NCBI GenBank assembly: GCA_013265495.1
Contig: MU057840.1
Span: 62,001-120,330, forward strand
Length of the DNA stretch: 58,330 nt
Direction of reading: 5' to 3'
Source of the DNA: Vicugna vicugna
Taxonomy: Eukaryota
Shown here: piece by piece, positions 156-45,084 of the stretch
How the letters are laid out: each line of letters begins with the position of its first letter
Numbering within the stretch: the stretch's first letter is position 1
Program-made: the position numbers and the translations under genes
Notes under the pieces: generated by a model
The model's database searches: none
What the model saw: the letters and a program-made list of their open reading frames with translations, nothing else
Told to the model about the DNA's origin: nothing

Positions 156-269
156 ACGTTGTTGTCCCCCTGGCTCCTGGTGTGGTACGTCCGCCTTCCT
201 GCTGTCTTCCCATTCCTTAACTCCACGGCGGGCAGTTCTTTGAAATAACAGCAAAACTGCTCAATGTTA
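156..269 (-). CDS. USP3: USP3 exon 7 (catalytic domain), 114 bp, intact in the ancestral frame
   Basis: aaatag|T AAC ATT GAG...AAC AAC GT|gtgag; encodes NIEQFCCYFKELPAVELRNGKTAGRRTYHTRSQGDNNV, matching recalled human USP3. Confidence 0.96.
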
Positions 270-1010
270 CTATTTTAAAAGGAAGGGAAGAAAATTATTT
301 TTTTTAATGTACTAAGACTGTGAAGAAAGTACTCTGAGACCTACATACGGACTTTGAAAATGTCACCTTTCAATTTCTCATTAGAACTGTACCTCAGTGC
401 AATCTCTTCACTAAGTCTCCTCATTTACTCCAAGAAAACAATAGAAGCAGATGACTTTGCAGAAATAAAGACCTCAGAGCAAAACGTCTGTTCAAAAAAT
501 CCCCAAGCCCCTCTCCTCCCCGCACCCCCAACACACACACACACAATCTATAGACTGCGGTCATTTCTTTTCAGGGTGTTTGCTCCCAAGCGTTCAATAA
601 TTTCCTCAAATAAAAACAAATCACGAAACCAACCACACTGTTTAAATACGCCCCACAGAGTCACCAGGAGAATTCAGCAGTGACTAGAACTTCTTCCTTG
701 AGCAAGACTAGGCAAGTCAGTACCTAGTAAAGTTCAGTACCTTTAAGGAGAGACTGAACTCGGCTTCTGCTCCTCATTAGCAAGGTGGCCTTGGGAAAAT
801 ATAATTTATTCTGGTCTTTGATGCCACATTAAAAATCTAAAAGTACACAACTTTCAAAATAACTTCTTTTATGTACCAGGTCAGCCTTGTTGTCAGTTTT
901 ATTTTTACTGCTCATCTTACATTTTCAAGATCTTCTAAACCTCTGATCTTATGACCATACTTAAGAATGAATCATTGAACCAAGTTCTCTGAACAAGGTT
1001 CCTTATAGCC

Positions 1011-1206
1011 CAGGAGTCTGCAAGCTGTGGCCCACGGGACAAATCTGGCCCTGCACCAGTGAGCTTTTACATTTTTAAAGTGGCTTCTATATTTCTGAAG
1101 AGTTGTGTAAAACGGAGGGGCTGCTGAAGGGAGGAGACTGGATGTGGCATGCAAAGCTTAAAAAGATGTATTTAACCTGGCCTTTTACAGAAGTTTGCAG
1201 GCCTGT
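1011..1206. mobile_element. MER58-like hAT/Charlie non-autonomous DNA transposon
   Basis: Motifs ggcccacgggacaaatctggccc, ttttacatttttaaa and tggccttttacagaagtttgc resemble the recalled MER58A consensus. Confidence 0.65.
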
Positions 1207-1239
1207 GCTCAACCCTATTCGAGAAGCAACAGGAACCAA

Positions 1240-1455
1240 ATAATAATAACAGCTAACAGTTATTAGCTGCCAGGCACTGTTCTAAGCACTTTGTACAAAT
1301 TGTGTAATAGCTTCCCAACCACCCTGTGAGGTTCACTACTATCCCCCATTCCACTGATGAGAAAAGCAAGGCACAGGGAGCTGGGGTACCTGCCCCAAGT
1401 TCCTAGAGTTAGTGGCAGAGACAGGATCGGAACCCACTGCCTTTGCTCCTAACCG
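1240..1455 (-). mobile_element. MIR SINE
   Basis: ccaggcactgttctaagcacttt...accctgtgagg...cccattccactgatgagaaaagcaaggcacagggag...agtggcagag: antisense MIR core. Confidence 0.8.
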
Positions 1456-1504
1456 TTCCACTCGAAACTGATGTCAGGTACTTAGGCTCTGGCTGTAACA
1501 TTAC

Positions 1505-1587
1505 CTGAGGGACTGAAGGATGGCATTCATGAAACACGTGTTCCCCAAATTCCGCAGGCCTGTGGCACAGATGGCAGTGGTGCTTCC
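1505..1587 (-). CDS. USP3: USP3 exon 6 containing the USP Cys box with catalytic cysteine, 83 bp
   Basis: ttacag|GGA AGC...CTC AG|gtaa; encodes [27 protein letters not shown] (seen in ORF 1501..1734). [12 protein letters not shown] is the USP-family Cys box. Confidence 0.97.
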
Positions 1588-2787
1588 CTGTAAAATGGAA
1601 CAAGAGGCAGCCATCAGGAACGCCAAGAGAAGGCCAACTGTTCCGAACATCAAAGTGGAGCGAAGGGCTGGACTTGAAACTCTAGCATCCAGCCAGCTTG
1701 GAACTGATTCTTTTCTGCCCAGCGAGTATTTCAAATTCCTTTTCTATTCTCTGTATAAGTGTCTGGATATTTTTAGAAGGCTGTTTCTGATCCTAGAACT
1801 GTTCTAAATGGGAGTATCTTATGGAAGCTTATGAGAGATCGGCATTACTAACTACTGTGGAGTACACATTGCAGAAACCAGGCAGGTCCTTCAAAGAAAT
1901 ACGTTTAGGACTTAATACTTGTATAAGATTCTATTAAAGCTACTACAAATCAGAAAAAGTATAAATATGTACATCTCAAGTATTTCTGTCCCCCAACTTT
2001 TAATTCTAAGCCACGGAAATAATTAATACATGTTTTCCTAGCAATGGAATACCAATCTTAAAACACCACCTGGACTTCCCTTAAAGACTAAGGTTTAGTT
2101 TTCTGATTAGCTGTACAAATGCACCACGATGTCTGAATACTACACGTGGGAAGTCAATCTACCAATCCAAGCCAAAGCGTCATGTCAGCTTTCTTCCACA
2201 AAGTTGTAACACTTTAGCTAAGTGTGTGTATAAACATAGCTAGCGTGACAGCACGAGGGTAGATGCAGGTTGAAATTACTGTTGTATTTAGAAATATTTA
2301 GTGATCTTTACATTTTGTTACTCCATTCATGGCTCATACATCTGGTAACAGCTGCATATCAGAATGAGAAAGCATATTCTTTTATGGTGAAACTGTATTA
2401 ATGCAGTCCTAAGAAAGAAAACATACCCAAACTTCAGACCCCTGGAGTTTGCACTGGGGACCTTAAAAAGAAGGAAGCAAGAACTCTGGGGTCCTACAGA
2501 AACAGAGTAACAAGGCAGCCGAGTAAGCGTGAAGAACAAACGCTTGCTAAGGCGGAGGAGCAGGGCAGCAGTCCTGACAGAGGGAAGGCACTGACAGACG
2601 GACCCCCTGGGGAACTGAGTAGCATGAAGGATCATTAGTACAAGTGGCAAACATTTCGTAAAATAATCCAAGTCCAAGGCATGCAGTTACAAAAGTTTAC
2701 AAGGGGCAACATTAATGTTAGAACTGTAATCAAACAGTGACTAGATCTCAACCAATTCTTACAGCTGAATAAATTTTAATTACTTAC

Positions 2788-2864
2788 ATTTACTTTCAAT
2801 AACTTGCTGTTTAGTGATGAGTTTTCCAAAAGTTTTCTTTTCCGATGCCTGTCCGAAAGCTGAG
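2788..2864 (-). CDS. USP3: USP3 exon 5 with 5-bp deletion (77 bp instead of the 82 needed to keep frame)
   Basis: taatag|CTCAGCTTTCGGACAGGCATCGGAAAAGA...AAAGTAAAT|gtaagt. S-A-F is followed by one extra G, then [22 protein letters not shown]; the T-A codons of SAFTADRH are reduced to 1 nt. Confidence 0.93.
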
Positions 2865-5627
2865 CTATTAAAACACAAAGAGACAGATGGTCAAAAAGAC
2901 ACTAGTACAGACACACTCCACAACAAGGTAAAGAATAAGCGTGGCTGTTTGAAGCGTCCAGGGTGCGGAGCCTGGCTGCTCAGACAGGCCAGGAAGGGAC
3001 GCGTTGGGCCCACTGCGGCCCACAAGGATTTCAAGTAACGCAGGAGCTCCACTTTCCTGGAAATCCCCGCTGCTCCTCCAGCAGGAGCTTCCCAGAAAAG
3101 CTGGCCAGGTACACGTGGCCAGTGAGACAGTCCCTCGCCGCCACCACTCTATCTAAATGATGGTGAAGCTTCCAACAGGAGCACAGGCCTTCCTTGTAAC
3201 AAAAGGACAGCCCTGGTCTGACACGATTATTCTGAGAGTTAACACCAAGTCTCAGACACTATGCTACTTCTTTCTTAAGTTTAATAAAGGGATCATGTTT
3301 TGTTCATATGTTGTAATAGATGATGATATACTGAGTCTGCAGAATGATAAATAAGTCATAGGCATATATAAATTCATTTGACTCAGCTATGGTACAAAGC
3401 ATATTCTAAAAGAAATCCTAATTAGCACATAAGTCCTGAATTTAAATTATTTAAATTTTTCTTGATGAAAGAGATTCTGTTTGAAATTTACCAGAAAGTG
3501 ATTCCTATCTTCAAAGCATCACTTTCAAATTATTACGTATTAGGAGAACTGATCTAAAGGAAGTAAAAACTACTATTAAACAACACACACTTTTAAGTCT
3601 ACCAACTCCTTCCTGTATTCCAAAAGTGCCAGGCTAATTCAGAGTAAATACATAATTATTTTTCTTTCCAGAATTTCCACAGGAAATACAATGTCTTTGG
3701 AGCATCAGATATTAGTGACAGTCAGTTGCTTCAAATCTAAAAATAGTCTTAGGAAACAAGTCTTCAGAACTGTGTGTGTGTCCCTCAGTGCCCTGGTGAC
3801 TACAAGACAAGACAAGATCAACCCCATGGACTGTGATGCTAACTTACTTCCTCACAAATCCTGCCAGTAAAGAAGCTGAGTCACAAGCACTGTGTATATA
3901 CTACTTAGTGACAATGCCTGATAGTTGACTTTTAGTTTCAACTTATATATATAAAGCATTTAGCTTTTCAAAAAGTTATTAAATTTTACCATCAGTGATT
4001 CTCAAAAGGGCAGAATCCTTTAGATCCGTTTGAATTTGCATTTGAAAAACATAAAAGTAAACCTAGGTAATGTTCCTTGACATAGGAAAAGGACTGCAGG
4101 TAGATTTTTTTCCAGTGGGGCCAAGTAGAAGTGTAGACGAGGCGATCGGTGACATCTTTTACCCGGTGACGTCGTCGATGGCAATAAAAGATCTGATAAC
4201 TGCATAAATGCAAGCAGGTTCCCGAATGTCCTGTTTTCTGTTTGACTTAGTTCTAAGGAAGTTATCTGGCATTGAGATGGCAGCCTTTTCTTAGAGAAAA
4301 TTCTAAGTGGCAGGAAAAAATAACCTCGTAGTTACCCACTTCTCTAACAAAGAAACAGGCTAGTGAGATCTTTACGACATCACCACATCGGAGAGTGATG
4401 TTACATAAATTACTGCAGGAGTCTCCTACTTTGCAGGTAACTGTGACAATCTGAGACGAAATGCAGTGTATTGGATCTGTGCATCTTTATCTGTGACTCT
4501 GATTCCAGACAGGGCTCCTGCTGCTTTGTTCAAATTAAAAGAAGGGAGGAGGCTCTTTGAAAAAGAGAGGAGACACAAGATGACAAGCCAAAAAGTATTT
4601 AAACCCAAAGTGTTCTAACGGGTTGAGACTTTTAAAGAATCAATTGTTCTTTCTTTATCAGCTTATAACCTATCTGGTGGAGACATGCAAGAGACTTTGG
4701 CTAACCAATGCTGGACAGTGTTTCATGCAAAGAACTTGGGTTATTCCCCCTCAGTATGCAATTTCAAAATACTCTATTGGCTTTGCATTTAAGTTTGCTA
4801 AGGGACCTCACTTCTGGTGTGATCTCACAACAGTGTCCAAATAAATCAGATGGCACCTGACAATTAGGAGTGAATTACACAAATTCCACCTGACTCAGTG
4901 GTCATTCTAGGCCATGCTTTTATCCACTGCAGCTTCAAAGACCACAGCTACTGGGGCTTTTGTTACTGCTTGAATTTTGGGTCCAGTGGGTTTTCTGTGA
5001 CTAACCGATTTAGCCATAGCAAAAAAAAAAAACAAACAAACAAAACTATGCACATAGGTACTTTAACTTCCTTATGATGACAAAGCATTTCACAGCTTCC
5101 TGTACTTTCAAGTGATACATACTGTCCCTACCAAAAAAGGGAAAGAAAGTAGGATCCTGTGCTGTAACACTGATGCAAAGTGAAGAACAATGTAATTCAT
5201 CCTAATTTCCCTTAAAAATGATAAATTTCAGAGCTTCTACGAAGACCTCATAGTACATTTCACAAGGTTTTTCTAATAACAAAGGAAACTCTATAATGAT
5301 TATTTTGTTTTCTGCCCGTCCCGTGCAGTCCCAAAATTCCCCTTGCAAATAAACTGGGGAGCTGACAGGTTGGTGGGGTGATAACTGAGAAAATGGGCTC
5401 TGGAGCCCTCGGATATGGATATAAACGTTAAATGACATGAACGCTGAGCTATGATCAGGAACCATGGGCATTTTCAGACACCCATACCTGAGGTTTGAGT
5501 CATTCACGTTTCAATCACACTAAAAACATGATGAAATACAGAACTCATAAACAAAAATCCTGCTCAGAAATTCTACAAGACCCCTCAATCCCATTCCACC
5601 CCTTCTCTCCCAAGGCCTGTTACTTAC

Positions 5628-5711
5628 TTTTCCAAGTTCTGTAAGTGTTCTCTGATTTTCTGTACCAGTCCCAGCTTGGTGTCACTGACCACAAAATCAT
5701 CACAGCGATAA
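5628..5711 (-). CDS. USP3: USP3 exon 4, 84 bp
   Basis: ttgcag|T TAT CGC TGT GAT...GAA AA|gtaagt; encodes YRCDDFVVSDTKLGLVQKIREHLQNLEN. Confidence 0.96.
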
Positions 5712-7649
5712 CTGCAAGGAAAACATTAATCAATGCGTGTACAGAGCTTGCGGAAACCACAGTAATGGAATCACTGAAAGGCCTGGCTGCTGTCAAGACG
5801 ATCACATGGCTCTGCAGGCAGTTACTGTCGCTGGTGAGTTGAAAGAGGACTTGGAACTCACAATGGAATGTTTTTTCAGAGCCTTTTCAAAAAGCCAGGT
5901 AGGCAATGAACACTAACTTCTTTTCACATTTTTATTCAAAGGCTCTCCAATTCCTCTTTCAAAAATGAAATAAGCTGCTACATGTGTTATATTCTTTTTA
6001 GTGGTGTGTAATACACGGAAAATGAAACACAAACCTCCAATCCTATTCCTGGAGCATGAAGCCTGAAGCTTTAACATCACGTGATCCTTCCCAACTCAAA
6101 TTAATGGGGAGTTTACGGGGAGGGAGAGGTTTAAGTGAAAAGCAGGGTAAAGACAATTAACCTGTGGGGATAGCTGGATAAAAAATGAAAAGCTATACGT
6201 TTTATACATAATTTAAATAAATTAAATTCAGATGGCTGAGAAGAATGCATCTTTTCATTCTGAAGTGTTAGAAGACAAAAGTGTAAAAGAGTGGATACAT
6301 CTTTCATGAAATTCACAACCGCTTTGAAGACAGACATTTAAGGTATTCTTTAAGACTGATACTGTGTGTGTTTGTGTATCTGTGCAAGACAATAAGCAAA
6401 TAATATAAGGAATCACACATAACTTCAACTTGTACATCAGCATTCATTTTTTTTCTGAAATAAGGCCAATCTTAACAAACAACTTACAAGCTAGTACAAA
6501 TACATTCTTTTGAACTGCAGCTTTGAACAAAACTACTTACTATAACTACCAAAGAATAATGACACTAACACTGCCATTCTGAGCAAACAAAACTTTGAAT
6601 GCATAGCAATTAGTAAAAGTTAAGTCATCTCTAGCAGAATCCAAAAAACATTTCTTACATACCTAAAACCAGTCTATTAAAAAATTGAAAAGAGGATGAG
6701 AGAAAGGAATTTTAAAAAAATTACGCACCAAAGTATGGCTTCCATCTTTTATTCACAGGAGTCAAACTGTGAATGCTTTCAAAAACTTTAACTAAAATAT
6801 GTATGTGATTATTTAATACTCCCTCCCCCCATTAATTAACTACCTACACTGACAATCAAGAACCCCTGACGTGCTCTCCCAGTGCCTGTGCTCGAACCTT
6901 AACATTTCCACGTGTAGCAAAAGCTGCCTCTTATATCCTAGACCCTTTCTCTATGGTCAAATACCAGCAATGGCAGGAGAATAATCCCTTATCAGTTTTA
7001 TGACAAATACACAGAGGAATTAAATTACTGAAAAGGTTTAATTTCCTGCTTCCTCTCGGCATAAACGTGAAGGGGGTAAGGTCTGCTCTGTAAACCTGGG
7101 CTTAAGGCACTTGGTTCCTCCAGAAACCCCAGGCATCACTGACGAATGAAACTGCTCTGTTACTCTAACTCCTGCTCATGTTTTTATTTTATGTTTGCAT
7201 AAATAGATGCATGTATTTCAGCTAAAACTGTGCTCAGCGTTCAAAATAAAAACACCACCAAATGCTAATGTTCATCTGGGAAAGGAAGTTTAAGAGCAAA
7301 CACAGATCACCTTTCATGTATTGACATGCTGCTAGAGTAGCTAACTGAAAAGTAAACCCCTTAACCACCGCCAAAAAATGGCTGCTTTGTTTTAAGAAAT
7401 GAATTGTTTCACATGATATGAAGTAACTAATTCTTTTTTTATTAAAGTAGTTCTTTTTGGTGTGACATGGACTCAGGCTTTAACATTTGTTAAAGTAACA
7501 TTTTCATACATTGAAATACAGACTTATTTACAGCTTGCTCCATTCTGAACTAACCTGGCTTAACCGGGTCTAGCTGCTCCCGCTCTCTTAATGGTCACCA
7601 TTCAAGCAAGTTGCTCTGGGCTCAAGAGCTGTGCTAACGTGGCTGATGC

Positions 7650-10074
7650 AATTGAGAAGCTGAATTTAAACATTTTAATTGACACAAAATTTTACTTAAC
7701 AACTGAAGCAGTATACAATATTTTTCCATTAAATATAACTTCATGGTTTTGGTAATACTATATTTCACTTTTATGATTATACAGTGTAAGACGTACTGCA
7801 GTGCACATGGTGGGTGCACGTGCCATTTCTAGGACCGCATCTAAGCGCATCACCAGTCTAGTTTGTGTCAACAGAAAGACTCAATTAAAGTTATTTTTCT
7901 ATACAATAATGCAGCACCATGTGTTTATTTGCATATCTTATGCAGACAGCATGAGTTACAGGGACACCTATGTAAACTGTAATTGGTAGTTAAATTAAAA
8001 CACTTATTTGGGGTGGGGGTGGGTATAGCTCAGTGACAGAGTGCCTGCTTCGTATGTACATGGTTCTGGGTTCAGTCCCCAGTGCCTGCATTAAAAATAA
8101 ATAAACACACACTTATTTTAATTATAATATAATTAAGTTATCCTTCCGGCTTAAAAATTAAGAATGAAAATTTTTTCACTTCCAAATGAAGGCACACTAA
8201 TGAGGCAGAATCAAGTCGAGAAGGTGTATCACAAATTTTACAAAGAACGGCAATTATAACTTACTACAACAGAGCAAAATTACCAAGCTGTGTAAAAAAA
8301 CTTGTAAGATAATAAAGCAGACAATATTAAGAGTCATCTTCAGCAAGTGCATAATAATTTGAGAAGTTAGCTCTCTACAGTCAAAATATAATCAACGTAA
8401 TTTTTCACAATCAATGAAATCAGAATGAAATGTATAATAAAAAAAATTTCTTGGTAATTTTAAGGATTTGCACTTGTAATTCTGGCCAGCTATAAAACAG
8501 CTTGAATTCTTAAGAAAGACAATCATTTTCAGATGGCAAGATGGAACAATAAATTATTATTTTAGCTAAAGGAATTATGTTTAAAATTTTGAGGTCAAGA
8601 TTAAAAAGGCTATTTTATAAAAAGTGAAAAGATCTTCAATTGATCCACCAAGCAACTATCAGTGAATAAAAGACCTTTCTAGTAAGATCAATCAGTTCAA
8701 CATCTGAAATTTTTACGTATTTTTATTTTTAGCTTTAGATGACTTTTACAAGACAAGAAATGGTGGCCAATTAATACTTTAGGGACATTTTGTCTCAAAT
8801 GACTTCCAAATTGAAATGCCTTTGTCTATTAGCAACCTTAAAAACAATCAATCTCATGCTGTAAATATTTCTTAATCTTTTATATCCATCACTTTCAGCT
8901 AGATTTAAAAAAACTTAAGACAGACATATGGGATCAAAAGCCCAGATTTACCGGAATTATTTCCCTTATTTGCTCTAGTGAGTGTTAACCTACTGAAAAT
9001 ACGTGTGCTCTGAAGCAGACTATCATGGAAGCAGTTACGGAAATTGTATAATACATATGTACAAATGCTACGAATCATCACCAGTTTATGGAGCTGTTAA
9101 AAGAAATAGAAGATGATGAATTTAATGACTATGTGTTCTCTGCCAGTGTTCACTGGAAGTCATGGAAGAATTTAACAAAGGTTCACTGTACTGTTAACTC
9201 TAATTCAAGATTTTCTTGAAACAAAAGGCACACTTGCCTGTATTCAGCAGAGAGAAAACATCACAGCAGGATTTACGACTCACCTGGATCACAACACAAA
9301 CGCCTGAGCTCAGTTTACAAATCCCAGGAGAGAGCAAGCTTGTTTGTGACCTAGACAGACAGGTATTAGAACTTTTGTTAAAATTTATACTATTCATAAT
9401 ACAAATCAATAATGATTCTTACACACTTTAGCATGAACAAAGATGCACAAGATTTTAATGATAAAGCATTAAGTCGGATGCAGAATCTACAAAAAAAAAA
9501 TGAAGAATGCTTTGTGATATGGGTAAATTTAGAGGTGATTTTCAGTTTACATAATCGCCCTCTGAATTCAATAATGAGTTGTTACAATAGTGGATTTACT
9601 CAACTTACATACAGTTTTGAAACTGATATGCTCTTGCTTCAGAGTCAAATCAATTATTCTAAAAAGATGCTTCAGTCTTGTCAATACAGATGCAAATACT
9701 GAAGAAAATGGGGTTTTCTGGTACTTTACTCATTAACTGGCAAAATCTTAATAGTGTTTGTAATCTACATTTTTAACTGCAATTTTAATGACTAAATACA
9801 GATCAAGCATTTCGGATGAAAAGTTAGCATCTGAATGGAGACATTCTGTATGTATAAAATACACGTTGGATTTTGAAGGTTTCATAAAAAAAGACGCAAA
9901 CTATCTCTAATAATTCTATATAAATTACCATGCTGACATAATACTTTGGATAACTGGGTTAAATAAAATACACAATTAAAATTAATTAGCCTATTTCTCT
10001 TTGCTTTTTTAATGTGGCTACTTGAAAATTATAAATTACATACGGGATAAATTATTTCTGTTGGACAGCACTGC
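7650..10074. mobile_element. Decayed Charlie1-like hAT DNA transposon
   Basis: Right end tttttaatgtggctacttgaaaattataaattacata...tttctgttggacagcactg resembles the Charlie1/MER3/MER33 terminus, with a long AT-rich interior. Left boundary uncertain. Confidence 0.55.
8010..8108 (+). mobile_element. Camelid tRNA-derived SINE (Vic-1-like) with 10-bp TSD
   Basis: gggtatagctcagtgacagagtg...ctgggttcagtccccagtgcc (A/B boxes) and A-rich tail; ACACTTATTT at 8000-8009 and 8109-8118. Confidence 0.85.
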
Positions 10075-12064
10075 TAGTCTAAAGAATATCTAAGATGCTA
10101 CCTGCCCAACATCATAAACAGGTAACAACTATAACTTTATTGAATTATAAGAAATCAACTTCAACTGGACTTAACTGGACACTGGCTTAACACATTTTAA
10201 GTTTTCACAATTATCCCTATTTGTCAAGAGTCAATTTTAGGTCTTCTTACGGTCACTCGGAAGGACATTTCCTGCCAAGATTATAAACTGCACACTGCCT
10301 GAATCTACTGCGCTCTGTGTTAGCTGCTGATGATGAAAGGAAAGCATCTGCTTCTAAGGGTCAAAACTTCCAAGAGCACCTGGCACGTGGTAGAGGGTGG
10401 ATACGTGTGAGCTTCCTTCCATGGCGGAACCAAGAGCTGCCTTACAGCCCTCTCCTCTAGCTGCCCCCATCCCCCGTTTTGATTTCTTCTTCCTCCCTGA
10501 CCCAGAGGTCAAAAGAAAATAAGTTACAAAAGTAGGAAATAAATAAGAATTTAAATGCTGTCTGTTGCCTTAGTCTTTAGCTGAGACATTGATTCAAGTA
10601 AACAAACTCTAAAGGTCTCTTCCTGGTTTACCATTGTGTTGAAGCTAAGTCAGAATCATGCTTTCCTCCAACACCTGAAAACAATGTAGCCACTTTTCTT
10701 AGTTTGCCCTTCAGAAAGGTCACACCAGAATAAGAAGTACAAAAAAAGATAGTAACTTTCAGGTTGTGTTTCAAAAGCTTCTAGATTTGGCCTCTGAAAT
10801 GTGGAATCCTTTTTCCCATTTTGAAAGAAAAACAGTTATAATGTATGGTTATATGTTGTAAGGTGAAAATACACCTGGTTCCGAAAATGTAACTGAAATA
10901 ATATAAAAAGTGCCACCCTTTTCTTCTTTCCACTGAGAAACTGGAGCAGACGTCCAGGTTTTGGTGCCCCTTCATATAAACAGGACTTCATGTGTCTATC
11001 AAACCAAAGTCAGGAACTACCTATATCGCCTGACCAATGTTTTGGCTATTAAATTAACACTTAGGCAAGTTTTACTTTAATGATTTTAGGTGATCCTTCC
11101 AGAAAAGATGAGCTCTACTTCTAACAGACCACTTGTCACATAAGGAAAACATTTTCTTCTGTATTTAGTAAGAAGAGAGAACTGCGTAAGAAAACTTAGG
11201 CAAACTGAACACTAAAGACAAAAAAATACTTCGAAATCACATTAGGCAACATATTAGAGACGGTAGATGAGGCAATCAGATATAAAAAGGCAGGAGGACG
11301 ACCGGCACTTCCTCTACGCCCAACACCTTGAGACAAACTACACTATCATCTTAGCTACATACAACTTAGCCTCAAACCAAGTTCCTTGAGCCAAATATGA
11401 TCCTAAAGTAATTCTACACTACTTTAAGCCAAAGGTTAACAAACTAATTAAATGTAGAGTATTACATACTGTTAAGGGCAGAAGACACACAATTAATTTG
11501 ACCACCTTGTGCTGAAAGAGTATCTACCAGGTAGCAGGTAAATTTTCATAAGAAACACACGTTATTTATACTATTATATAATTAGGTTAAAAATTGATAA
11601 AAACCACAGCTTAAGTTATTTTCAATTCTGATTACTCTAATAAACAGCAAAACTGTCCAATTTTTTTCATTACATTGATTCTTTATGTGTACATCTGTAA
11701 TCTTGATTTTTTTCTAACTTCTCACATCTAATCATACCTAATCCTTTCTATGTTTCTTTATATAATCTCCCCCAAACTCATCTTTTTTCTCCTCAATCTC
11801 AACTAACATTTTGTTCTATACCTTGGTTACCTCCTTTGGGGTGATATCCCCCAACCCCCAAATACAGTGACTTTCAAATCCACAGATATCTGTATCTGAA
11901 TTAAGCTACAGTACTTGATGGTCTGCACAATGTCAACCTCACCTCAATTTTCTTCTCTCTCGCCTTTCCCCCCAAATCTTCCCTTTCCCTTCAGCATTAA
12001 ATGCTTTACGTTTAGATATACGCTTTTGTCCCATACACCAACTCCCTTACCCTCCTCAGCTCAG

Positions 12065-13900: not shown

Positions 13901-14034
13901 GTAGTAATATACTTAATGTTAAATATTAAGTTTGATGCCACACTCTGATACAGTAGCTACCAATCAATTGGCAATTTAAACATAATAATTAAAATAAAAT
14001 AAAAACATTCAATTCCTCAGTCCCACTAGCCACT

Positions 14035-14536: not shown

Positions 14537-17427
14537 CCACTAGCGACTTTTAATTGCTCAACGGCTACCGAATTGTATGGCACAGATGTCATGCCCAAAA
14601 TAGAACTCTCTCTCTCTCTTTCTCAGCTTTAAAATTCTGAAGCTTTTTCCATTCCTGTTGTTAGTGCTACTGAAGCTACCCAAGTCATAAGGCTCCACAT
14701 CAGACTCTTGAAGAACTAAGAAAATATTCTCAGACCAAACCATTTTTGACTCATTTGTAACAAGAAGTAATCAATGTACAAATTAACCTAGTATTTTAAG
14801 CAACAGTAAGGAAACAAGTCCTTTAATCTGCAGGCTATGAAGCAATCTTTATACACTAAGTCCTGTGTAATATTAGTACAAAACAACTTTCATGTAAAAA
14901 GTAACCCTCAAGGAATGACAAGGGCAAATAGATCATTACATTTTAAATTCTTTTTCATTTCCCTGTTTAATAGATAATATCATCACAATAGGATATCTAG
15001 AGGAAACTCTGACCTCTAGTTTTACTATAAATGACAAGATACAGATACAGAAAAAAAAAAGCTGATGTTCTAATGACTTCACCTATTTCAAACCAAGAAA
15101 AGTAAAAACTAAAGAACTCTTTTAGAATATAAGCTTATTTTTAAATTCTCTTTTATTCAGTTCTAATGTATTGCCATCAAATCAGCCTCAAATCAGCCAA
15201 TTCTGGAAAATGAGAATACCTGCAGAGAAAATCCATTTCCTTTGTTAAAAGCAGACAAGCACCAGCTTATTAAGAAAGAGACTTTTGTTTTCAGACCATG
15301 CACTAAAAGGTTTCTTTTTACTAAAATTGCAAAATACTGTTTTTAAATTTAAAAAATTCTTCTTGTTATCTAATCTTTACAACATTGAAATTTTGTGTCC
15401 AAAAGTTTACAAGGCTAGTCAATAAAAGATCTTCCTGTTTATAATCACAACTGCCTCTGAAAATAATTCACTATCAATTTAAGCCCACAAACAAAAGCTT
15501 TATTTTTATTAATTTTAATTAAAATGGCTATTTATTATAGGTGTTTAAAATCTGAACTAGAAGTCCATTTTCTAGACAAATCAATTGACTCACATTTCAC
15601 ATTTCTCCATTTGAAGGAGTGCTTTCAAACATTACCCTGCCAAGAAGGAAAAATTCTGGTTAGTTTTAATAACCCTCTCATACTTTTGAATCTTCAGAAA
15701 TTCAGCTATTACACGTTGACAAGGCTATGTCAGGTGTCAAAAATTATCTGTTCAGTATTTTTAAAATATATTAACTCTAAATATCTGTCTACATAAGAAA
15801 TCAAAGCCCCTAATTTTTAGTAATTTTTAGTCACCACATACAATTCCATTTGTGTTGACCGGGGGAGGGGAGTTGGGGTGAGAGGAAAGGAAATATTACT
15901 GAATACACAATTAACTGAACACTTGCCCTTGTGTGAAAATCTTGAGATTTTCATTTTTACTGAAATCTTCATTTGTCTCCCAAAGCACTGCGTCTGTGTC
16001 AGAACAGAATTACTCCCTTTGGTGTCGTTTTCCCTCTTTTGAAATAGTGGCCTATTTTATGCTGTTCTGCTTGGTTCATACGTGCCTCTTCTGGATGCCC
16101 TCCTTACATCACAAGTGAAGCGAGCTGCTCTGCAAGGGTGTCCCTCTTGGGAGGTATATGGAATAGCTCACACATGTTATGATTTTAGATCTTCAGGAAA
16201 AATGTTCCGCAGCCCTTCAGTCCTCCAAGAGGATCAAGAGGGCACAGTAATATAAATTTGGTATAACCTTCCCCATTTTTGGAAGATAAGTTAGCAAAAT
16301 TCAATCTTTCAAACATCTACGCCCTGCTCTGCACCAGACACTGAGTACTGTGGTCGATACAAAGATGTGACATATGGCTCCTGCAGGCCCCAGGGACATT
16401 TACAAATAACTAACGTGCAGCAGGAAATTACAAGTATCTCAGGAACTCTGAGTTTAGGAGAGATCACATCCAGCTACAGTTGGAGCTGGGGCGGGGGTGG
16501 CACAGTGTGGACAGCTCAGTGATAACTTCATAAAGGATCTGCACAGACAGACGCACAGGGCCTCTTGGAAAAGGGAAGGTAAGGACAGAAAAACAGCCTC
16601 AGAACATGTTTCAACTTCCTCAGAGCACAGAGGTCTTGGAAAAGGAGCTTCAACATTAGCTATAATCAAAGTCTTTTGACTACAAATAATAATTAACAAT
16701 CAAATCGGTTTAACCTAATATACCAACATTTTACCTCAGAAACAAACCATTCAGTCTTACCACAAGAAATGTATACACAAGGAAAATTTACAAACTAGAG
16801 TGAAAATACTAAAGTACACTGGGAAATAATACACACAGAGACACACACCCCATGCGGAAGAAAGCCTTTTTTGTTTGTCTCTTCATCACAGTGAGGTGTG
16901 GGAAATGTGAATTTCACCTGCAGCCTCATGGGTCTACCACTCTCACAGGTTCCATATAGGCTGTCAGTATCACGCTACAGGAGCAAAATTCCCTGGCACT
17001 TTGTTCTAAAACCACAAATGGGATGGTTCTGTGACCAGCTGCAGCTCCCTGCACTTCAGAAGCTCTGGGTGTCCACACACTCACAGAAGACTGGAACTGG
17101 CCAAGAAGCCCCTGCCATGGTGTCTGTTCCCCAAGGTTCAAGATCTGCCATTTAATTCCAATTCAGCTGTGAAACGATTTGTACTTTAGCACGCTACTCC
17201 AACATAAAACAAATTAAATTAAATTAAATATAAAACAAATTAAATTCCAATTCTAGTTAATAAAGGTATTCCTCCAAAATGCAATATACAAAGACATTAA
17301 AGTAGATAATCTTTATCTTTAAAGAGACCTATGAACAGAATTCCACTCCATTAAGAAAATTCTAAGGTAATTCTTTAAGTTTCCTCAAAGAGTTACTATT
17401 TCCTCATAATCTCACCAATAGCAAGAA

Positions 17428-18289
17428 AACCCACTGCACACAGAGATTTAGCTGTATCTCCAAACTTCCCCATTAAGCCTTTCATGCACATTACTAACTG
17501 AAAACCAAGAAGACTGAATGTTTTCAATGTCTGGTACGAACAGGATGCCATGACCTACACTGATGACTGTAAGACAGACACTTCAAGAACGATCTTAATT
17601 TCTGCTGTCTAAAGAGAAATACTTACAAACTTATAGTAACACACAGTTCTGTTAATTAGGTAGCTCTGTCATTCTAGTTTCCTGAGGGAAAGGGGGGGGA
17701 AACTAATGAAAACACTCTAACAGCTTGGCTAACACTTAACTTTCGTAGGAGTGTTTTATGAGAACAAATGGCAATAAACTGAGCACTAGGCCTTGTGTGA
17801 AAATCCTGAGATTTTCACTTCTACTGACATTGCCATCTGCCTCTAGCTTCTCTCTCACAACCCACTGCACACAGAGATTTAGCTGTATCTCCAAACTTCC
17901 CCATTAAGCCTTTCATGCACATTACTAACTGAAAACCAAGAAGACTGAATGTTTTCAATGTCTGGTACAAACAGGATGCCATGACCTACACTGATGACTG
18001 TAAGACAGACACTTCAAGAACGATCTTAATTTCTGCTGTCTAAAGAGAAATACTTACAAACTTATAGTAACACACAGTTCTGTCAATTAGGTAGCTCTGT
18101 CATTCTAGTTTCCTGAGGGAAAGGGGGGGGAAACTAATGAAAACACTCTAACAGCTTGGCTAACACTTAACTTTCGTAGGAGTGTTTTATGAGAACAAAT
18201 GGCAATAAACTGAGCACTAGGCCTTGTGTGAAAATCCTGAGATTTTCACTTCTACTGACATTGCCATCTGCCTCTAGCTTCTCTCTCAC
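17428..18289. repeat. Head-to-tail 431-bp tandem duplication (17428-17858 / 17859-18289)
   Basis: Both copies run aacccactgcacacag...ttctctctcac; I found only two substitutions (tacgaac/tacaaac; tgttaat/tgtcaat). Confidence 0.97.
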
Positions 18290-19475
18290 CCAGGTCTGGA
18301 CACCTTCTGCACAAAGGATCACCAAAATGGTAATGACCTGGATGACTAGCCCTCACGAGGCTTTACTCAGTCATCACAGCAATGTTAAACCACCGACCTT
18401 TCTTTCCTTCCTTTTGATGGACAGCTTTCTACAATAACCAACTAAGGACGATGCAGAAAGGACCAGCACACAACTTCAGTAGAAAGTATGAATCAAAAGC
18501 GGTGTCTGGACTTTAAATCCCCATCCCTGCCCAGTATGACCTACGGCCTTTGTGTGACATTGATTCAAGGGCTGTGTGGCAGCTACAACACATCCAAAGA
18601 GAGCCTTTAAATAGCTTGGGTTTTTTTTTTTCTTCTTTCAATATTAAAACCCGTTTGAATTCAGTAAAGTGGTTACAACAAGTAAAGAATTGTTCATAAT
18701 TTACTAGACAAGGGAAGAAATTTGCTTCACACTAAAGTTAAAACTGTAAAACACACTGAATTTCTGAGCAGACCAAATGGACATGGGTTATTAAACATCA
18801 CTTGTAATCTAAACAGCCTAGTTCTAAGTCGCCACAAAAACAGACACTTACTTTATTGTCATTTATATGAAACAGACATGTAGACATTATTACAAGGAGA
18901 ACAGGGCCCCCAAAATCTTTTTAAAAGATGTGATACTTTAAACAAAAATTGGTCTGAAAAGCTATAAGCAAAAATCTTGACATGTATCTACCGAAGAGAA
19001 GAGGAGACCGGAACTGTGTTGGGGGTGGGGAGAATGTCAAAATAATTTTTTAAACAAATAAGTTATAAATTTAAGATTATATAACAAAATGTTAACTGGA
19101 CAATAGGAACATGGGTTTTTATCTCAGGTGGGGCACTGAGTTTTTAATCCTTTCATTCTTCAATTAAAAACAAAACAAGAAAAAGAAAAGGACTTACAGT
19201 GAGCAACAACAAATAATAGTTACTTTTCATTTCCCTGCAGCCTACGGGGGGTGGGAAAGAAGAGGCAGTGGAGAGGCTGAAAGGGCAAAGCAAATGAATA
19301 CGTACAGGTGGTCCTGGTGGCCCCATCCTCTGTGAGTCCCCACAGAACTCACAGGCAGCAGTGGCCGTCTCGACTGCTTTAGAGGCTGGGGCGAGCGGAA
19401 AGAGCGACGAAGATGAGAAAACACTTGCGCTCACATGGTAAAGGAACACCATTTTCAGAAAACAGTAATACTTAC

Positions 19476-19607
19476 CAGTACGTACTGTAGCTACTGCAAT
19501 CCATACACACCGTGTGCTGAGCTTTTTCTTGCTTTTCTGACTTCTTACGGTTGATTAAGGGTATTTGTGTATCTTCGTAACTTTTTTTTTGCATGACATT
19601 CACATAC
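19476..19607 (-). CDS. USP3: USP3 exon 3, copy A (ZnF-UBP, degenerate), 132 bp
   Basis: tgtaag|G TAT GTG AAT...TAC TG|gtaagt; encodes YVNVMQKKSYEDTQIPLINRKKSEKQEKAQHTVCMDCSSYSTY. The GHAKKH motif is replaced by VMQKKS. Confidence 0.94.
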
Positions 19608-20254
19608 CTTACAAAAATCAAATGAAAATCTATCTTAATCTAAATACTGCTTTGGAAGGTAAAGTAGTAGGAGATGATAATAAAATTAGATTGTTATCAA
19701 ATCAGAAATGAGAAAGAATTTTTCCTAATAAAAGCATTCATTCCTGTAAGAACATTCAGTCACTTAGTGATTTATTAAGCTGAGTACTTAAAATATGCTC
19801 TTCTTTCGCAATCATGTATGACAGTCGGCTCTTAGTTACACACAAGACTGGGGCCAGGCAAGGAAGGTGTCATCTACGCAAACCAGTTTCAACACCAGTG
19901 ATATCATCGCTTGTCAACTCCTTTGCTAGATCCTTCTGCTACGGCTTTTTTCTTTTTTTAAAGTGTTTCTCAGACGGCTAGCCCCAACCTCAGGCTATTA
20001 TCAAAGACGAGTTTCGTAAACTAAATTACTCAGTCACTGCCCACAGGGTCACGGGCTCTGCTTAATAAAAACATGAGAATCAGATAGTGAATGAATACGT
20101 ACAGGTGGTCCTGGTGGCCCCATCCTCTGTGAGTCCCCACAGAACTCACAGGCAGCAGTGGCCGTCTCGACTGCTTTAGAGGCTGGGGCAAGCGCAAAGA
20201 GCGAGGAAGATGAGAAAACACTTGCACTCACGGTAAAGGAACAGTAACACTTAC

Positions 20255-20386
20255 CAGTACGTACTGTAGCTACTGCAATCCATACACACCGTGTGCTGAG
20301 CTTTTTCTTGCTTTTCTGACTTCTTACGGTTGATTAAGGGTATTTGTGTATCTTCGTAACTTTTTTTTTGCATGACATTCACATAC
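20255..20386 (-). CDS. USP3: USP3 exon 3, copy B (same exon sequence as copy A), 132 bp
   Basis: Same exon sequence and AG/GTAAGT sites as 19476-19607, inside a ~0.79 kb tandem duplication. Confidence 0.92.
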
Positions 20387-21639
20387 CTTACAAAAATCAA
20401 ATGAAAATCTATCTTAATCTAAATACTGCTTTGGAAGGTAAAGTAGTAGGAGATGATAATAAAATTAGATTGTTATCAAATCAGAAATGAGAAAGAATTT
20501 TTCCTAATAAAAGCATTCATTCCTGTAAGAACATTCAGTCACTTAGTGATTTATTAAGCTGAGTACTTAAAATATGCTCTTCTTTCGCAATCATGTATGA
20601 CAGTCGGCTCTTAGTTACACACAAGACTGGGGCCAGGCAAGGAAGGTGTCATCTACGCAAACCAGTTTCAACACCAGTGATATTACCGCTTGTCAACTCC
20701 TTTGCTAGATCCTTCTGCTACGGCTTTTTTCTTTTTTTAAAGTGTTTCTCAGACGGCTAGCCCCAACCTCAGGCTATTATCAAAGACGAGTTTCGTAAAC
20801 TAAATTACTCAGTCACTGCCCACAGGGTCACGGGCTCTGCTTAATAAAAACATGAGAATCAGATAGTGAAACAGGACAACCTTCCATCTCCTTCTCATCA
20901 GTATGGCTCCAAATCTTTTATTTGAATGCCTGCACAATCACTCCACTCATATGGAATAGGTTTGTTTAGAAAAAATCCAAACAAAACACAACTCATGTTA
21001 ACCTTATACAGACTGTTCTTTCTCTACATGGACAAAGATAATCAAAGGTTGACTACAGTCATAAAAATTAACTCTTTCCCATTCAGATTGAATAAATCAT
21101 TTTATCACAAAAAGCAAAATAAAACTGAATTGAGGGTTCACATGCATATGCTGTGCACACAAATTCACCTACATCTTCACCTAAATATGTACAAAGCCGT
21201 AACCGACCACTACTTGAAGACCCTTATAAAACAAAAACTAAAACTCCCCAGTTCCTAGAAAGCAGCTAATTTGTAGAAGGCAAGGCCTAATGGAAAACTC
21301 ACAACAGTCAAAACGAATGTTGATTTAACAGCACCAAAATAACTCTGCTCAGAGAGTTAAGGTGACATTTTTGTCACAAGGCGCCTTAAACCTTAACTGA
21401 GAGCAACACTTACCTTGGGGAAAGCTAGGGAAAGCGAGGAGGACCAACCGCAAGCCCAGCCTCTGGCCCCAGGAAAGCTGGAAGCATGAGAGGCACTGCC
21501 ACCCTCCACTCAACTCTGACTTTGGTCATGGTTTTTTCCGACATTTTGTTTTCTTTGTAATAAACATAACCAACACTTGTGGGTACAAAGGTCTTAAGTT
21601 TACAAAAGTGGACTAAAATGAATTTTTTAAAAATGATTA

Positions 21640-21835
21640 AGAGTATAAACTCAAAAACAAGACTGCCTGGGTTCAAAAGTAGGCTTTGTCACATGCTGGC
21701 CAGGGGAGCTGGGGTGAGTTAACCTCTCTGTGCTTCTGTTACCTGTAATGGAGGTAAAAACACTTACACTGTCGGTTCTTAGGTGATTAAACAATCCACG
21801 GCTCAGAATGCATGCATGAATGAGTGTTAGCAATT
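21640..21835 (+). mobile_element. MIR SINE
   Basis: agactgcctgggttcaaa...gagtttaacctctctgtgcttctgttacctgtaatggag. Confidence 0.7.
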
Positions 21836-21872
21836 TTTTATTCGTATTTTCCTTTATATGCTTAACAACTAC

Positions 21873-22017
21873 TTTTTTTTTTTTTTATTTTGGTGGAGGG
21901 GGAGGTAATGAGGTTTTTTGGGTTTTTTTGTTAATGGAGGTACGAGATACTGGAGATTGAACCCAGGACCTCATGCTTGCTAGGCACACGCTCTACCACT
22001 GAGCTATATACCCTGCC
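21873..22017 (-). mobile_element. Camelid Vic-1-like SINE
   Basis: Poly-T, ttttggtggagggggaggtaatgagg, then tactggagattgaacccaggacctcatgcttgctaggcacacgctctaccactgagctatataccc. Confidence 0.88.
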
Positions 22018-24437
22018 TCCCTGCTTAACTACAATTTATTCAGAATCCAAACAACATAATTGCTTGGAAAGTCATCATATTAAGTCCATACTTTGAGATG
22101 TGTTAACATTGCACAGGTCAGGAAACACCCCATATTTAATTAAAAGATAAACTCCAGGGGAGCCTATAAGTTCAATACCTAATCAGCTTAATTTCCTATG
22201 CTTGTATGTATTTACAGCTTAAATTCCTAGGCTTATACATATTTATACTGTGCTGTGAAAAACAAAGAAATATTTATAATGAGGAGTACCTTCAGAATCC
22301 AAGAAAAGGCAATAGGGAATGATAATAAAGGCATTACCACATTCAAATTTTTGAAAACTGGTTACATTGCATATAGTTCATTTACACACATACTGTAGTC
22401 TCCAAATGTACTAAATGCTCACATGTCAATGTCAGTGACACAGTAGGGCTGCTTTACTGCAGACCTAAGAGTAACAATGTTTTGGCTAATACTCAAAACA
22501 TCAGTCAGAAGTTAACCAACACGTATAAAAAGGCTATCATAAAAATAAATATTTCTCTCATCCAGTTTTAGATTTTAGCTAGACAATTTGGTCTAAAAAG
22601 GAAAAGTGTCAATATGCACATCACAGATTTTTTAACAACAGCAAAAATCGGAAAAATACCTTAAATGGGATGGTGTCATGAAGACTAATAGGATATATAA
22701 CTCAAATGCGCTACGGATAAACTATGTTTCCTAGTGGAAAAAATGCTCAATTTAAGACTTCCCTACAGACAAGTGGGCTAAATCACTAAAAAAAAAGCCC
22801 AGAATCCTTGGCAACCAATACCCAGGATTACATGATACAAGAACATTAGCCAATCAGCCATGTAAAATGAACGTCCAAATACAGGCTCTTCTCCTCATCT
22901 GTGTAATCTACTTAATCATGTACCTCTGCACCATGTCAAGTTCCTAAATTTAAGATTGCTTACAACTGGAAGCATGCTGCCTACAGAGCCTAGAAAGTTT
23001 TCACTTTCTTTTTTTTTTTCCTTTTTCAGTTTTATTAGGTAGAATTATCACATCTTGATTATTTTTCCAAACCTACTTAGAGAACTGCTTGTTGTTAGCT
23101 ATCAAGGACATTCATCTCTCCAATTTTTTAGTTTGTCAGGTCTTTTTGTTGACATATGACCTTCAAGATTCAGGCTGTAGAGCACTATGAGACAAATGGA
23201 GAATAGAATTATGTAAGTTTTATTACATTATAACTCTCACCTCTCAAAATCTAGGAGAGGAATCTGTCTCTTCAAAGTGCAGTATTTAAGTGCTTCTACT
23301 TTTCTTCTTTTTTAAAAAGAAAAAATGTTATCTGTACAAAGTATTCTCAGGTTCCCCAAATCCTAGAGATTGCAAAACCACAACAACCACAATTAAGATA
23401 TGCAGTTAACATTTTCCAAAGGTACTCTTTAAGTGTACATGAAACAAAATACTCAGTTCCAGGACTGAAAATAAGATGCTCTCTTCATGCAATGAAGGTT
23501 TATAAATAACAGTGGGGAAACAGTCCAAATAAATGCAATACAGATTTCAGCCTGTGCCGCTTGGTATGATTTCCCATCTCCCTGCTGCTGGGCTATTAAC
23601 TTCTAAAGTAAATTCAAAGTGGATTTTCCAAGCTAAAAGAGAGACAGAAATAAATGTGCTACTGCCAGGCACACAAAGGTGGATGTTTACTTGAGTTTCT
23701 GTTAGCAGAGTTACTAACGTACTTAATATTTAAGTAAAGTCATTTTGGAGCAAAGACCTAGGAGGAAATGCTCAGGCTGGAATGGGGGTTGGGAGTGTTA
23801 AGCCTTAATGGAATGAAACATGTGGTACATTTGAGACAGCATTAATAACCCCACCGTGAGGTCGTTCTCAAGGGAGTTCCTTTATCTGTACATATTCTAG
23901 TGTTTTGTTTTGTTTTGTTTTCAGAAAAATAATATGACATCCAGGATCTGATTCAAAACTCAGATTCAAAAAGGTAAGGCTGGCATAGGTAATAGGTGAA
24001 ACAAAATTGGCCACGTGTTTATAAGTGTTGAAGCTGGGCGGTAAAAATACAGGGTTCAATTAATTATACTCTCTACTTCTGAGCGTGCTTAAATTTACCC
24101 TAATAAAAGGTACTTAAAACAACCATAAGACATCAGAGTTCCTTATTTCATCTTTTATTACTAGCAGACTGTCACATATTACTAGTAGATTGTCTTTATC
24201 ATCAAATTAATTCTTCTGAGTACCAACAAAAAAGGGGTCCCCCCTCCAGATTTTCCTCAGTTCCATCACCGAACAGGGATTCTGTTAGGAGAGGGAAGCC
24301 CTACAGAGAATTACGTACACACTATGATTAAGCAGTGGTGCTAAATAAACCCAAATCAGTAAAACTTTGACATAAAGCTTAAGGTAAATTGAAAAAAGCA
24401 AGTTGGATAGCAAAGTAAGAATAAGTATGTCACCCAC

Positions 24438-24498
24438 CTTCCACAGTGGACACCTGAAGAAGTCAGACAGACCCAGGGGCTTTTGCTGGACCGGCACA
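24438..24498 (-). CDS. USP3: USP3 exon 2 (ZnF-UBP), 61 bp
   Basis: tattag|TG TGC CGG...GGA AG|gtgggt; encodes VCRSSKSPWVCLTSSGVHCGR (in ORF 24356..24538) versus recalled human VCRSNKSPWVCLTCSSVHCGR. Confidence 0.95.
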
Positions 24499-45080: not shown

Positions 45081-45084
45081 CATA

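What the first reader, a model, noticed from the sequence alone, without database searches (positions are those of the whole stretch)
156..24498. Asymmetric decay: ZnF-UBP exons degenerate while catalytic exons are unchanged
Seen: exons 2-3 (193 nt) have lost conserved zinc ligands and carry indels and a duplication, and exon 5 has a deletion. Exons 6-7 (197 nt) show no amino-acid difference from my recollection of human USP3, and all splice sites are intact. The COL12A1 exons carry several frameshifts. Inference: purifying selection persisted on the catalytic part after the ZnF was released, or gene conversion from the parental USP3 refreshed the 3' part. The sample is small, so chance is possible.
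Basis: partly seen in the sequence, partly recalled or inferred. Interest (0 to 1): 0.75.

Follow-up and report, generated by a model that had tools for sequence, protein, structure and literature searches.

The report
Gene-converted partial USP3 duplicate
A broken partial copy of the USP3 gene in a camelid genome looks fresh in three exons because about 6 kb was recently overwritten by the working gene, an ordinary process.

Summary
On the minus strand the window carries USP3 exons 2-7. Exon 2 has Cys->Ser in CLTC. Exon 3 has a -1/+1 indel pair and a tandem duplication. Exon 5 has a 5-bp deletion. Exons 6-7 are unchanged.

Selection is not the cause. The same assembly holds the full parental USP3 (contig C10625, exon 1 on C4199) and a sister partial copy (C11260). 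Window copy and parent differ by 5.83% over 28,095 aligned bases. In one 6,177-base block they differ at only 22 sites (0.36%), introns included. This block covers exons 5-7 (window 1-4326 plus 1,851 bases upstream). It is an ectopic gene-conversion tract with the parent as donor.

Outside the tract, catalytic exons 8-11 decay as fast as zinc-finger exons 2-4 (17/449 vs 11/277 substitutions). dN/dS on this copy's branch is about 0.85. The exon-10 donor site is deleted. Exon 1 and exons 12-15 are absent.

Two further tracts lie deep in intron 1.

The duplicate abuts COL12A1-derived pseudo-exons. Camel RefSeq models splice one of these in frame to USP3 exon 2.

The parts
1..4326 (.). In-window part of conversion tract T1. 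The whole tract is contig C917 60149-66326, so it starts 1,851 bases before the window. It is near-identical to parental USP3, introns included.
   Evidence: 22 mismatches in 6,177 aligned bases (0.36%) against 5.83% in 28,095 bases outside. The binomial tail is about 1e-125. In the three-way alignment the tract bins give C917-only 11, parent-only 4 and C11260-only 326 of 4,498 sites.
156..269 (-). USP3 exon 7 (114 nt). It is identical in DNA to the parental exon.
   Evidence: the sister copy C11260 has 6 changes here
1505..1587 (-). USP3 exon 6 (83 nt, Cys box GNTCFMN). It is identical in DNA to the parental exon.
2788..2864 (-). USP3 exon 5, 77 instead of 82 nt. A 5-bp deletion at window 2854 plus 2 substitutions shift the frame. 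It lies inside tract T1.
   Evidence: The deletion is absent from C10625 and C11260, and from the alpaca models P0012/P0129, which read an intact exon 5.
5628..5711 (-). USP3 exon 4 (84 nt). It has 2 nonsynonymous differences from the parent (N->S, shared with C11260; V->I).
19293..20870 (.). Tandem duplication of about 0.8 kb. Each unit carries one copy of exon 3 (19476-19607 and 20255-20386, minus strand). Both copies have the -1/+1 indel pair.
24438..24498 (-). USP3 exon 2 (61 nt). It has 3 nonsynonymous changes, including Cys->Ser in CLTC. The zf-UBP match is weak.
   Evidence: (zf-UBP E=0.0047, below the cut-off)
29153..29710 (.). Short tract T3 in intron 1: 558 bases identical to the parent.
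31918..33804 (.). Second conversion tract T2, deep in intron 1. It has 11 mismatches in about 1.9 kb and is flanked by 5-8% divergence.
1..41611 (-). In-window part of the USP3-derived duplicon. The whole duplicon is C917 about 49862-103611. It runs from intron 11 to part of intron 1 and lacks exon 1 and exons 12-15.
41606..41760 (.). Junction between the USP3-derived and COL12A1-derived DNA. It lies at a dispersed repeat and is shared with C11260.
   Evidence: C11260:92666-95862 spans it at 96% identity
41766..43439 (-). COL12A1-derived pseudo-exons (fn3 and VWA). The last one (41769-41881) is the first coding exon of the camel 'USP3' RefSeq models.

Best explanation
The window holds a partial segmental duplicate of USP3: exons 2-7 here and exons 8-11 just upstream on the contig. 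It has no exon 1 and no exons 12-15.

The copy is decaying neutrally, at about 5.8% from the parental gene. Its lesions include a missense change at a presumed zinc ligand, a compensated frameshift, an exon duplication and a lost exon-10 donor.

A single nonallelic (ectopic) gene-conversion event later copied about 6.2 kb of the parental USP3 locus over the duplicate. This erased the accumulated changes in exons 5, 6 and 7 and in the introns between them. That is why the first catalytic exons look untouched while the ZnF-UBP exons look degenerate.

Shown here: the three-copy structure, the sharp-edged low-divergence block that includes introns, equal decay of ZnF and catalytic exons outside the block, and two more such blocks in deep intron 1.

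Inferred: the parent was the donor, because the tract's exons encode the canonical protein. The event is recent, at roughly 6% of the age of the copy-parent split (0.36/5.83). The exon-5 deletion arose after the conversion, or escaped it, or is an error or polymorphism of this assembly.
For: 1. Three USP3 loci exist in the genome (72 matches listed, 83 of 115 candidates scored). C10625 has exons 2-15, with exon 1 on C4199. C917 (the window's contig) and C11260 have exons 2-11 only.
2. In C917 vs C10625 sliding windows, mismatch is 4-8% everywhere except 0.2-0.6% from C917 about 60.1k to 66.3k. The exact count is 22/6177 against 5.83% of 28,095, P about 1e-125.
3. In the three-way alignment outside the tract, the branches are C917 3.66%, C10625 2.21% and C11260 3.35% of 6,006 sites. 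In the tract bins C917-only is 11/4498, parent-only 4/4498 and C11260-only 326/4498.
4. Outside the tract, C917 and C11260 share 7 derived amino-acid states where the parent keeps the canonical residue. They are therefore sister copies. Inside the tract C917 groups with the parent, which is phylogenetic incongruence.
5. C11260 was not converted and carries 7 changes in exons 6-7, 6 of them nonsynonymous.
6. Outside the tract ZnF and catalytic exons decay equally. The C917 branch has N=13 and S=4, omega 0.85.
7. Tracts T2 (window 31918-33804, 11 mismatches) and T3 (558 bases identical) lie in deep intron 1, far from any exon.
8. No N run lies between C917 52780 and window 12064. Only three copies of the tract exist in the assembly, with no orphan 94% version.
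9. Alpaca RefSeq models on a 96-Mb scaffold (P0012, P0129) show the same mosaic: 0/93 residues changed in exons 5-7, 6/66 and 9/72 in exons 3-4, and 7/87 in exons 8-9.
Against:
- The assembly is gapped, and an orphan contig (C8688) holds a fourth exon-3 type. The duplicons are therefore not fully resolved.
- The left border sits at a CT-rich stretch with small indels. That could be a natural endpoint or an assembly joint.
- The RefSeq models may rest on an assembly that shares data with this one, so their independence is unknown.
- Donor direction rests on coding sequence only: P(no nonsynonymous change in exons 6-7 on a neutral lineage) = 0.008. The C11260-only rate in the tract (7.2%) fits either direction.
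- Three differences cluster within 17 bp of exon 5 inside the tract, which a single clean conversion does not predict.
Confidence: 0.8

Rival explanations
1. Assembly chimera. The true C917 copy is about 6% diverged throughout, and the assembler or a gap-closing step filled 6.2 kb (and the intron-1 blocks) with reads from the parental locus.
For: The assembly is scaffold-level, with N runs in the window (12065-12404, 44947-45027, 58044-58139) and an unplaced 729-bp contig of a further exon-3 type. The 0.36% difference inside the tract is in the range of heterozygosity (recalled, not measured here). The exon-5 deletion is not seen in the alpaca RefSeq models.
Against: There are no N runs within about 7 kb of either border. 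At 6% divergence the two copies share few long identical words that could mislead an assembler. The borders are colinear on both sides. Tract differences are skewed to the C917 branch (11 vs 4). No orphan unconverted version exists in the assembly. RefSeq models from a chromosome-scale alpaca scaffold show the same exon mosaic.
Confidence: 0.13
2. Purifying selection kept the first catalytic exons of the duplicate intact after the zinc finger was released.
For: Exons 6-7 have no change and all in-window splice sites are kept. Transcript models exist in alpaca and camels.
Against: Introns inside the block are as identical as the exons. Catalytic exons 8-10 outside the block carry 17 substitutions, with 8 nonsynonymous on this branch. 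Exon 5 is frameshifted, the exon-10 donor is deleted and exons 12-15 are absent. Similar blocks lie in deep intron 1.
Confidence: 0.03
3. Chance. With few sites, two exons simply escaped substitution.
For: Only 197 coding bases are involved.
Against: P(0 in 197 nt) = 4e-4 at this copy's exon rate. The 6.2-kb block has P about 1e-125.
Confidence: 0.01

Closest known systems
Interlocus (nonallelic) gene conversion between a gene and its duplicated pseudogene, e.g. CYP21A2/CYP21A1P, GBA1/GBAP1, PKD1 and its pseudogenes (examples recalled, not checked here)
   Same: Unprocessed duplicates keep their introns. A sharp-edged block of near-identity lies in otherwise diverged paralogs, introns included. 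Several tracts of different length occur in one locus.
   Different: Here the functional gene is the inferred donor and the pseudogene the acceptor, so nothing harmful to the parent is implied. The 6.2-kb tract is long for a single mammalian conversion event (recalled range: tens of bases to a few kb).
Chimeric genes made by segmental duplication, e.g. hominoid USP6 (TBC1D3 + USP32) (recalled)
   Same: A partial USP gene duplicate sits next to a fragment of an unrelated gene in the same orientation. Camel RefSeq models splice the COL12A1-derived exon in frame to USP3 exon 2.
   Different: In this genome the copy cannot encode a full USP domain: exons 12-15 are absent, exon 5 is frameshifted and the exon-10 donor is lost. 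No function or expression was tested here.
USP3 (ZnF-UBP plus USP/UCH domain deubiquitinase)
   Same: Exons 2-11 are homologous with conserved exon-intron structure, and the Cys box is intact.
   Different: It lacks exon 1 and exons 12-15. The ZnF-UBP is damaged. Models of this copy cover only UCH profile positions 1-109 of 254.

Membership tests
Functional USP3 orthologue/paralogue | Complete ZnF-UBP with all Cys/His ligands | tested here: not met
   Exon 2 has Cys->Ser in CLTC. Exon 3 reads VMQKKS instead of GHAKKH after the -1/+1 indels. The zf-UBP score falls from 65.5 bits (P0014) to 25.1 bits over profile positions 34-61 only (P0129). That these residues are ligands is recalled.
Functional USP3 orthologue/paralogue | Cys box of the USP domain | tested here: met
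   Exon 6 is identical to the parent and to P0014.
Functional USP3 orthologue/paralogue | His box and C-terminal half of the USP domain (exons 12-15) | tested here: not met
   C917 has no match to residues 364-520. Homology to the parent ends in intron 11 at C917 about 49,862. UCH profile coverage is 1-109 of 254.
Functional USP3 orthologue/paralogue | Open reading frame through all exons with usable splice sites | tested here: not met
   Exon 5 has a 5-bp deletion and the exon-10 donor is deleted.
Nonallelic gene-conversion tract | Block of much lower paralog divergence, non-coding DNA included, with background divergence on both flanks | tested here: met
   0.36% inside against 5.83% outside, with both borders sharp to within about 300 bp.
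Nonallelic gene-conversion tract | Phylogenetic incongruence against a third copy | tested here: met
   Outside the tract C917 and C11260 share 7 derived residues. Inside it C917 equals the parent, and C11260 alone differs at 326/4498 sites.
Nonallelic gene-conversion tract | Structure confirmed in reads or assemblies independent of this one | tested here: inconclusive
RefSeq protein models from another alpaca scaffold reproduce the exon mosaic, but only at protein level and with unknown independence.
Processed (retro-) pseudogene | Loss of introns | tested here: not met
   All introns are retained and colinear with the parent over about 54 kb.
COL12A1-derived fragment | Best protein matches to collagen XII, with fn3 and VWA domains | tested here: met
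   VWA E=1.6e-7 and two fn3 fragments. Identity is 78% to a collagen alpha-1(XII) chain and 90% to a dromedary collagen fragment.

The most novel reading that the evidence does not exclude
Camelids may carry a lineage-specific, multi-copy COL12A1-USP3 chimeric gene family. It would be transcribed from the collagen-derived exon spliced in frame to USP3 exon 2. RefSeq models of this kind exist in Bactrian camel and dromedary, and one dromedary model has exons 2-7 identical to the parent. Recurrent conversion from the parental USP3 would keep the zinc-finger and Cys-box exons fresh in some copies. Some copies could then encode a truncated ubiquitin-binding protein with a function of its own, rather than being plain pseudogenes.
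Probability: 0.1. Interest if true: 0.5.

Novelty: new member of a known kind. Interest (0 to 1): 0.27.

Why it matters
The main lesson is one of caution. An 'intact' block inside a decaying duplicate is better explained by ectopic gene conversion than by selection, and intron divergence settles the question. For camelid genomics it flags USP3 as a locus with at least three or four partial duplicates fused to a COL12A1 fragment. Annotation pipelines currently label these copies as USP3 isoforms or USP3-like genes. They can mislead read mapping, variant calling and dN/dS scans. Four literature searches found no paper on USP3 duplication in camelids within the held library.

Tried and rejected
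I worked from stretches instead.
Smaller requests followed.
Of 419 stop-to-stop ORFs of 40 aa or more in window 24500-58330, I scanned 209 singly: 150 and 59. The other 210 were not scanned.
No read-level test of the borders, of the exon-5 deletion, or of presence in other organisms was possible.
- The look-up of sequencing runs listed 24 runs. Nineteen of them hold 68-80% of the sampled words of window:2500-6500 (8 studies, organisms A-D). This shows only that similar sequence exists.
- A 12.4-kb DNA search of the own genome returned only dispersed repeats and not even the self-match. A 3.2-kb query worked.
- The search of earlier findings returned nothing.
- The alpaca Y-chromosome paper (PMC7830431; passages found by term search only) mentions neither COL12A1 nor ubiquitin. 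The idea of a Y-linked transposed block was dropped for lack of any evidence.
- A processed-pseudogene origin was rejected because the introns are present.
- Donor direction could not be settled from non-coding sites. The C11260-only rate in the tract fits both directions.
Full report
WHAT IS IN THE WINDOW

The window is the last 58,330 bases of contig C917 (120,330 bases) of a 2.03-Gb mammalian assembly. A stop-to-stop ORF at 1501-1743 on the minus strand contains a USP Cys box. Its best database relatives are vertebrate USP3 proteins, several of them from camelids.

I ran tblastn with a 520-residue mammalian USP3 (P0014, a bat cluster representative; human USP3 was not available). This places exons 2-7 on the minus strand, and exon 3 occurs twice. 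Exact exon limits, all with AG/GT, are:
- exon 2: 24438-24498
- exon 3: 20255-20386 and 19476-19607
- exon 4: 5628-5711
- exon 5: 2788-2864
- exon 6: 1505-1587
- exon 7: 156-269

THREE COPIES IN THE GENOME

I searched the assembly with P0014. It listed 72 matches, with 83 of 115 candidates scored.
- Contig C10625 holds a full set of exons 2-15. Exon 1 is on C4199, and the start of C4199 overlaps the end of C10625.
- C917 and C11260 each hold exons 2-11 only.
- The parental exons 2-11 all have AG/GT and give an open frame of 335 codons.
- Homology between C917 and the parent runs from intron 11 (C917 about 49,862) to window 41,611 in intron 1.

The duplicate is therefore an unprocessed internal fragment of about 54 kb. 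It has no promoter or exon 1, and it lacks the exons that encode the second half of the USP domain. Models of this copy cover UCH profile positions 1-109 of 254.

THE DECISIVE TEST

C917 and the parent mismatch at 4-8% per kb almost everywhere. From C917 about 60.1k to 66.3k the value falls to 0.2-0.6%.
- Listing every difference puts the borders at C917 60,149 and 66,326, which is window -1,851 to 4,326.
- Inside there are 22 mismatches in 6,177 aligned bases (0.36%) and one 5-bp deletion.
- Outside there is 5.83% mismatch over 28,095 bases.
- The binomial tail is about 1e-125.
- The block contains exons 5, 6 and 7 and all the intron DNA between and around them.
- Exon 8 lies about 400 bases beyond the left border and is diverged.

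USING THE THIRD COPY

Outside the block the three copies form a near-star. The private differences are 3.66% (C917), 2.21% (parent) and 3.35% (C11260) of 6,006 sites.

In the bins wholly inside the block the counts are 11 (C917), 4 (parent) and 326 (C11260) of 4,498 sites. C917's own lineage-specific changes have been erased there.

In the exons outside the block, C917 and C11260 share 7 derived residues where the parent keeps the residue of other mammals. The two partial copies are therefore sisters, and C917 grouping with the parent inside the block is a phylogenetic incongruence. C11260 was not converted and shows what neutral decay does to exons 6-7: 7 substitutions, 6 of them nonsynonymous.

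NO ASYMMETRY ONCE THE TRACT IS SET ASIDE

- Substitutions between C917 and the parent number 11/277 in ZnF exons 2-4 and 17/449 in catalytic exons 8-11 (Fisher p = 1.0).
- On the C917 branch there are 13 nonsynonymous and 4 synonymous changes outside the tract (omega 0.85).
- For exons 8-11 alone the counts are 8 and 3 (omega 0.74). That fits neutrality (p = 0.71) but not parental-type constraint (P = 0.002 at omega 0.1).
- The catalytic part also has a disabling lesion. The donor of exon 10 is removed by a deletion of about 11 bp.
- Alpaca RefSeq models P0012 and P0129 match this copy residue for residue in exons 3, 4, 6, 7, 8 and 9. They skip exon 10 and end in a shifted reading of exon 11.

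MORE TRACTS

The rest of intron 1 shows the same pattern.
- Window 31,918-33,804 has 11 mismatches in about 1.9 kb, flanked by 5-8% divergence.
- Window 29,153-29,710 is identical over 558 bases.
- Shorter identity runs occur next to exon 4 (429 bases), over exon 11 (273 bases, outside the window) and at window 16,113-16,409 (297 bases). Each is unlikely at the background rate.

Conversion here is recurrent and pays no regard to exons. This again argues against selection.

DIRECTION AND AGE (INFERRED)

The tract's exons encode the canonical protein. A neutral donor lineage would be expected to carry about 4.9 nonsynonymous changes in exons 6-7, so P(0) = 0.008. The parent is therefore the likely donor.

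The ratio 0.36/5.83 puts the event at roughly 6% of the age of the copy-parent split.

Inside the tract, exon 5 has a 5-bp deletion and two substitutions within 17 bases. The deletion is private to C917. It is absent from the alpaca models, which read an intact exon 5. It may be a later mutation, an unconverted patch, a polymorphism or an assembly error. I could not tell which.

CAVEAT

The alternative that the block is an assembly chimera is not excluded.
- Against it: there are no N runs between C917 52,780 and window 12,064. Only three versions of the block exist in the assembly. Differences in the tract are skewed to the C917 branch. The same exon mosaic appears in protein models from a 96-Mb alpaca scaffold.
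- For it: the assembly is gapped, and an orphan 729-base contig (C8688) holds a fourth exon-3 type, 96% like C917's.
- The planned read test could not be done.

SURROUNDINGS

At window 41,606-41,611 the USP3-derived DNA abuts a different duplicon at a dispersed repeat.
- Window 41,766-43,439 on the minus strand is derived from COL12A1 (VWA E=1.6e-7; 78% identity to a collagen XII chain).
- It has a frame switch within an fn3 exon, an in-frame stop and a 15-bp deletion, and reference residues 995-1160 are missing.
- C11260 spans the same junction at 96% identity, so the fusion predates the split of the two partial copies.
- The last collagen-derived exon ends in phase 1, as USP3 exon 1 does.
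- RefSeq models in Bactrian camel and dromedary (P0026, P0133, P0135, P0131, P0143) start in that exon and continue in frame into USP3 exon 2.
- One dromedary model has exons 2-7 identical to this genome's parental translation (0/186 residues).
- Four dromedary 'USP3' fragments carry consecutive accessions on one scaffold.

The duplicon family is therefore shared by Old and New World camelids. It is multi-copy and probably transcribed. Its function, if any, is untested.

VERDICT

This is an ordinary mechanism at a locus where four searches of the held library found it undescribed.

Noticed in passing
window 41769-41881 (minus strand) and 24438-24498 (minus strand): The last COL12A1-derived exon ends in the same phase as USP3 exon 1. 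Camel RefSeq 'USP3' models begin in it and splice in frame to USP3 exon 2, giving a chimeric COL12A1-USP3 transcript model. In this window an ATG (MQLADF...) in that exon is in frame with exon 2.
   Followed up: partly
contig C8688 (729 bases, locus L021): This orphan contig carries another exon 3 with the same -1/+1 indel pair. It is 96% identical to C917's exon-3 units, 92% to C11260 and 89% to the parent. It points to at least a fourth copy that is unassembled.
   Followed up: partly
window 17428-18289: A 431-bp unit is repeated twice in tandem at 99.5% identity (2 mismatches). The parent has it once. This is a second young tandem duplication beside the exon-3 one.
   Followed up: partly
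window 41606-46000: The COL12A1-derived block is itself multi-copy. It matches contigs C586, C6650, C4851, C621 and C6951 at 80-86%, which is more diverged than the USP3 part is from its parent.
   Followed up: no
window 40300-43500 vs C11260:92666-95862: C917 and C11260 are 96% identical across the junction but only 88-92% in the gene body. Exchange between the two partial copies, or layered duplication, may be involved.
   Followed up: no
C917 52781-58979 (loci L010, L023): The parental branch is shorter (2.2%) than either duplicate branch (3.4-3.7%) in mostly intronic DNA, even though it should include the stem of the duplicates. The duplicates seem to evolve faster, or many small conversions blur the signal.
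   Followed up: no
window 49000-51500 and 56000-58000: Two GC-rich blocks (62-64% GC in 2-kb bins) each follow LINE-1-like ORF2 tails and look like a direct repeat of several kb.
   Followed up: no
C10625:1335297-1338174 (loci L017, L038): About 2.9 kb is present in the parental intron 8 but not in C917. It resembles repeats at window 51828-52676 and 54660-55514 (75-77% identity). It is probably a LINE insertion in the parent or a deletion in the copy.
   Followed up: no
proteins P0002, P0140-P0142 (dromedary): Four short 'USP3' records with consecutive accessions lie on one 52-Mb scaffold. They have diverged exon 6 (two residues changed), which suggests a tandem array of unconverted copies in dromedary.
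   Followed up: no
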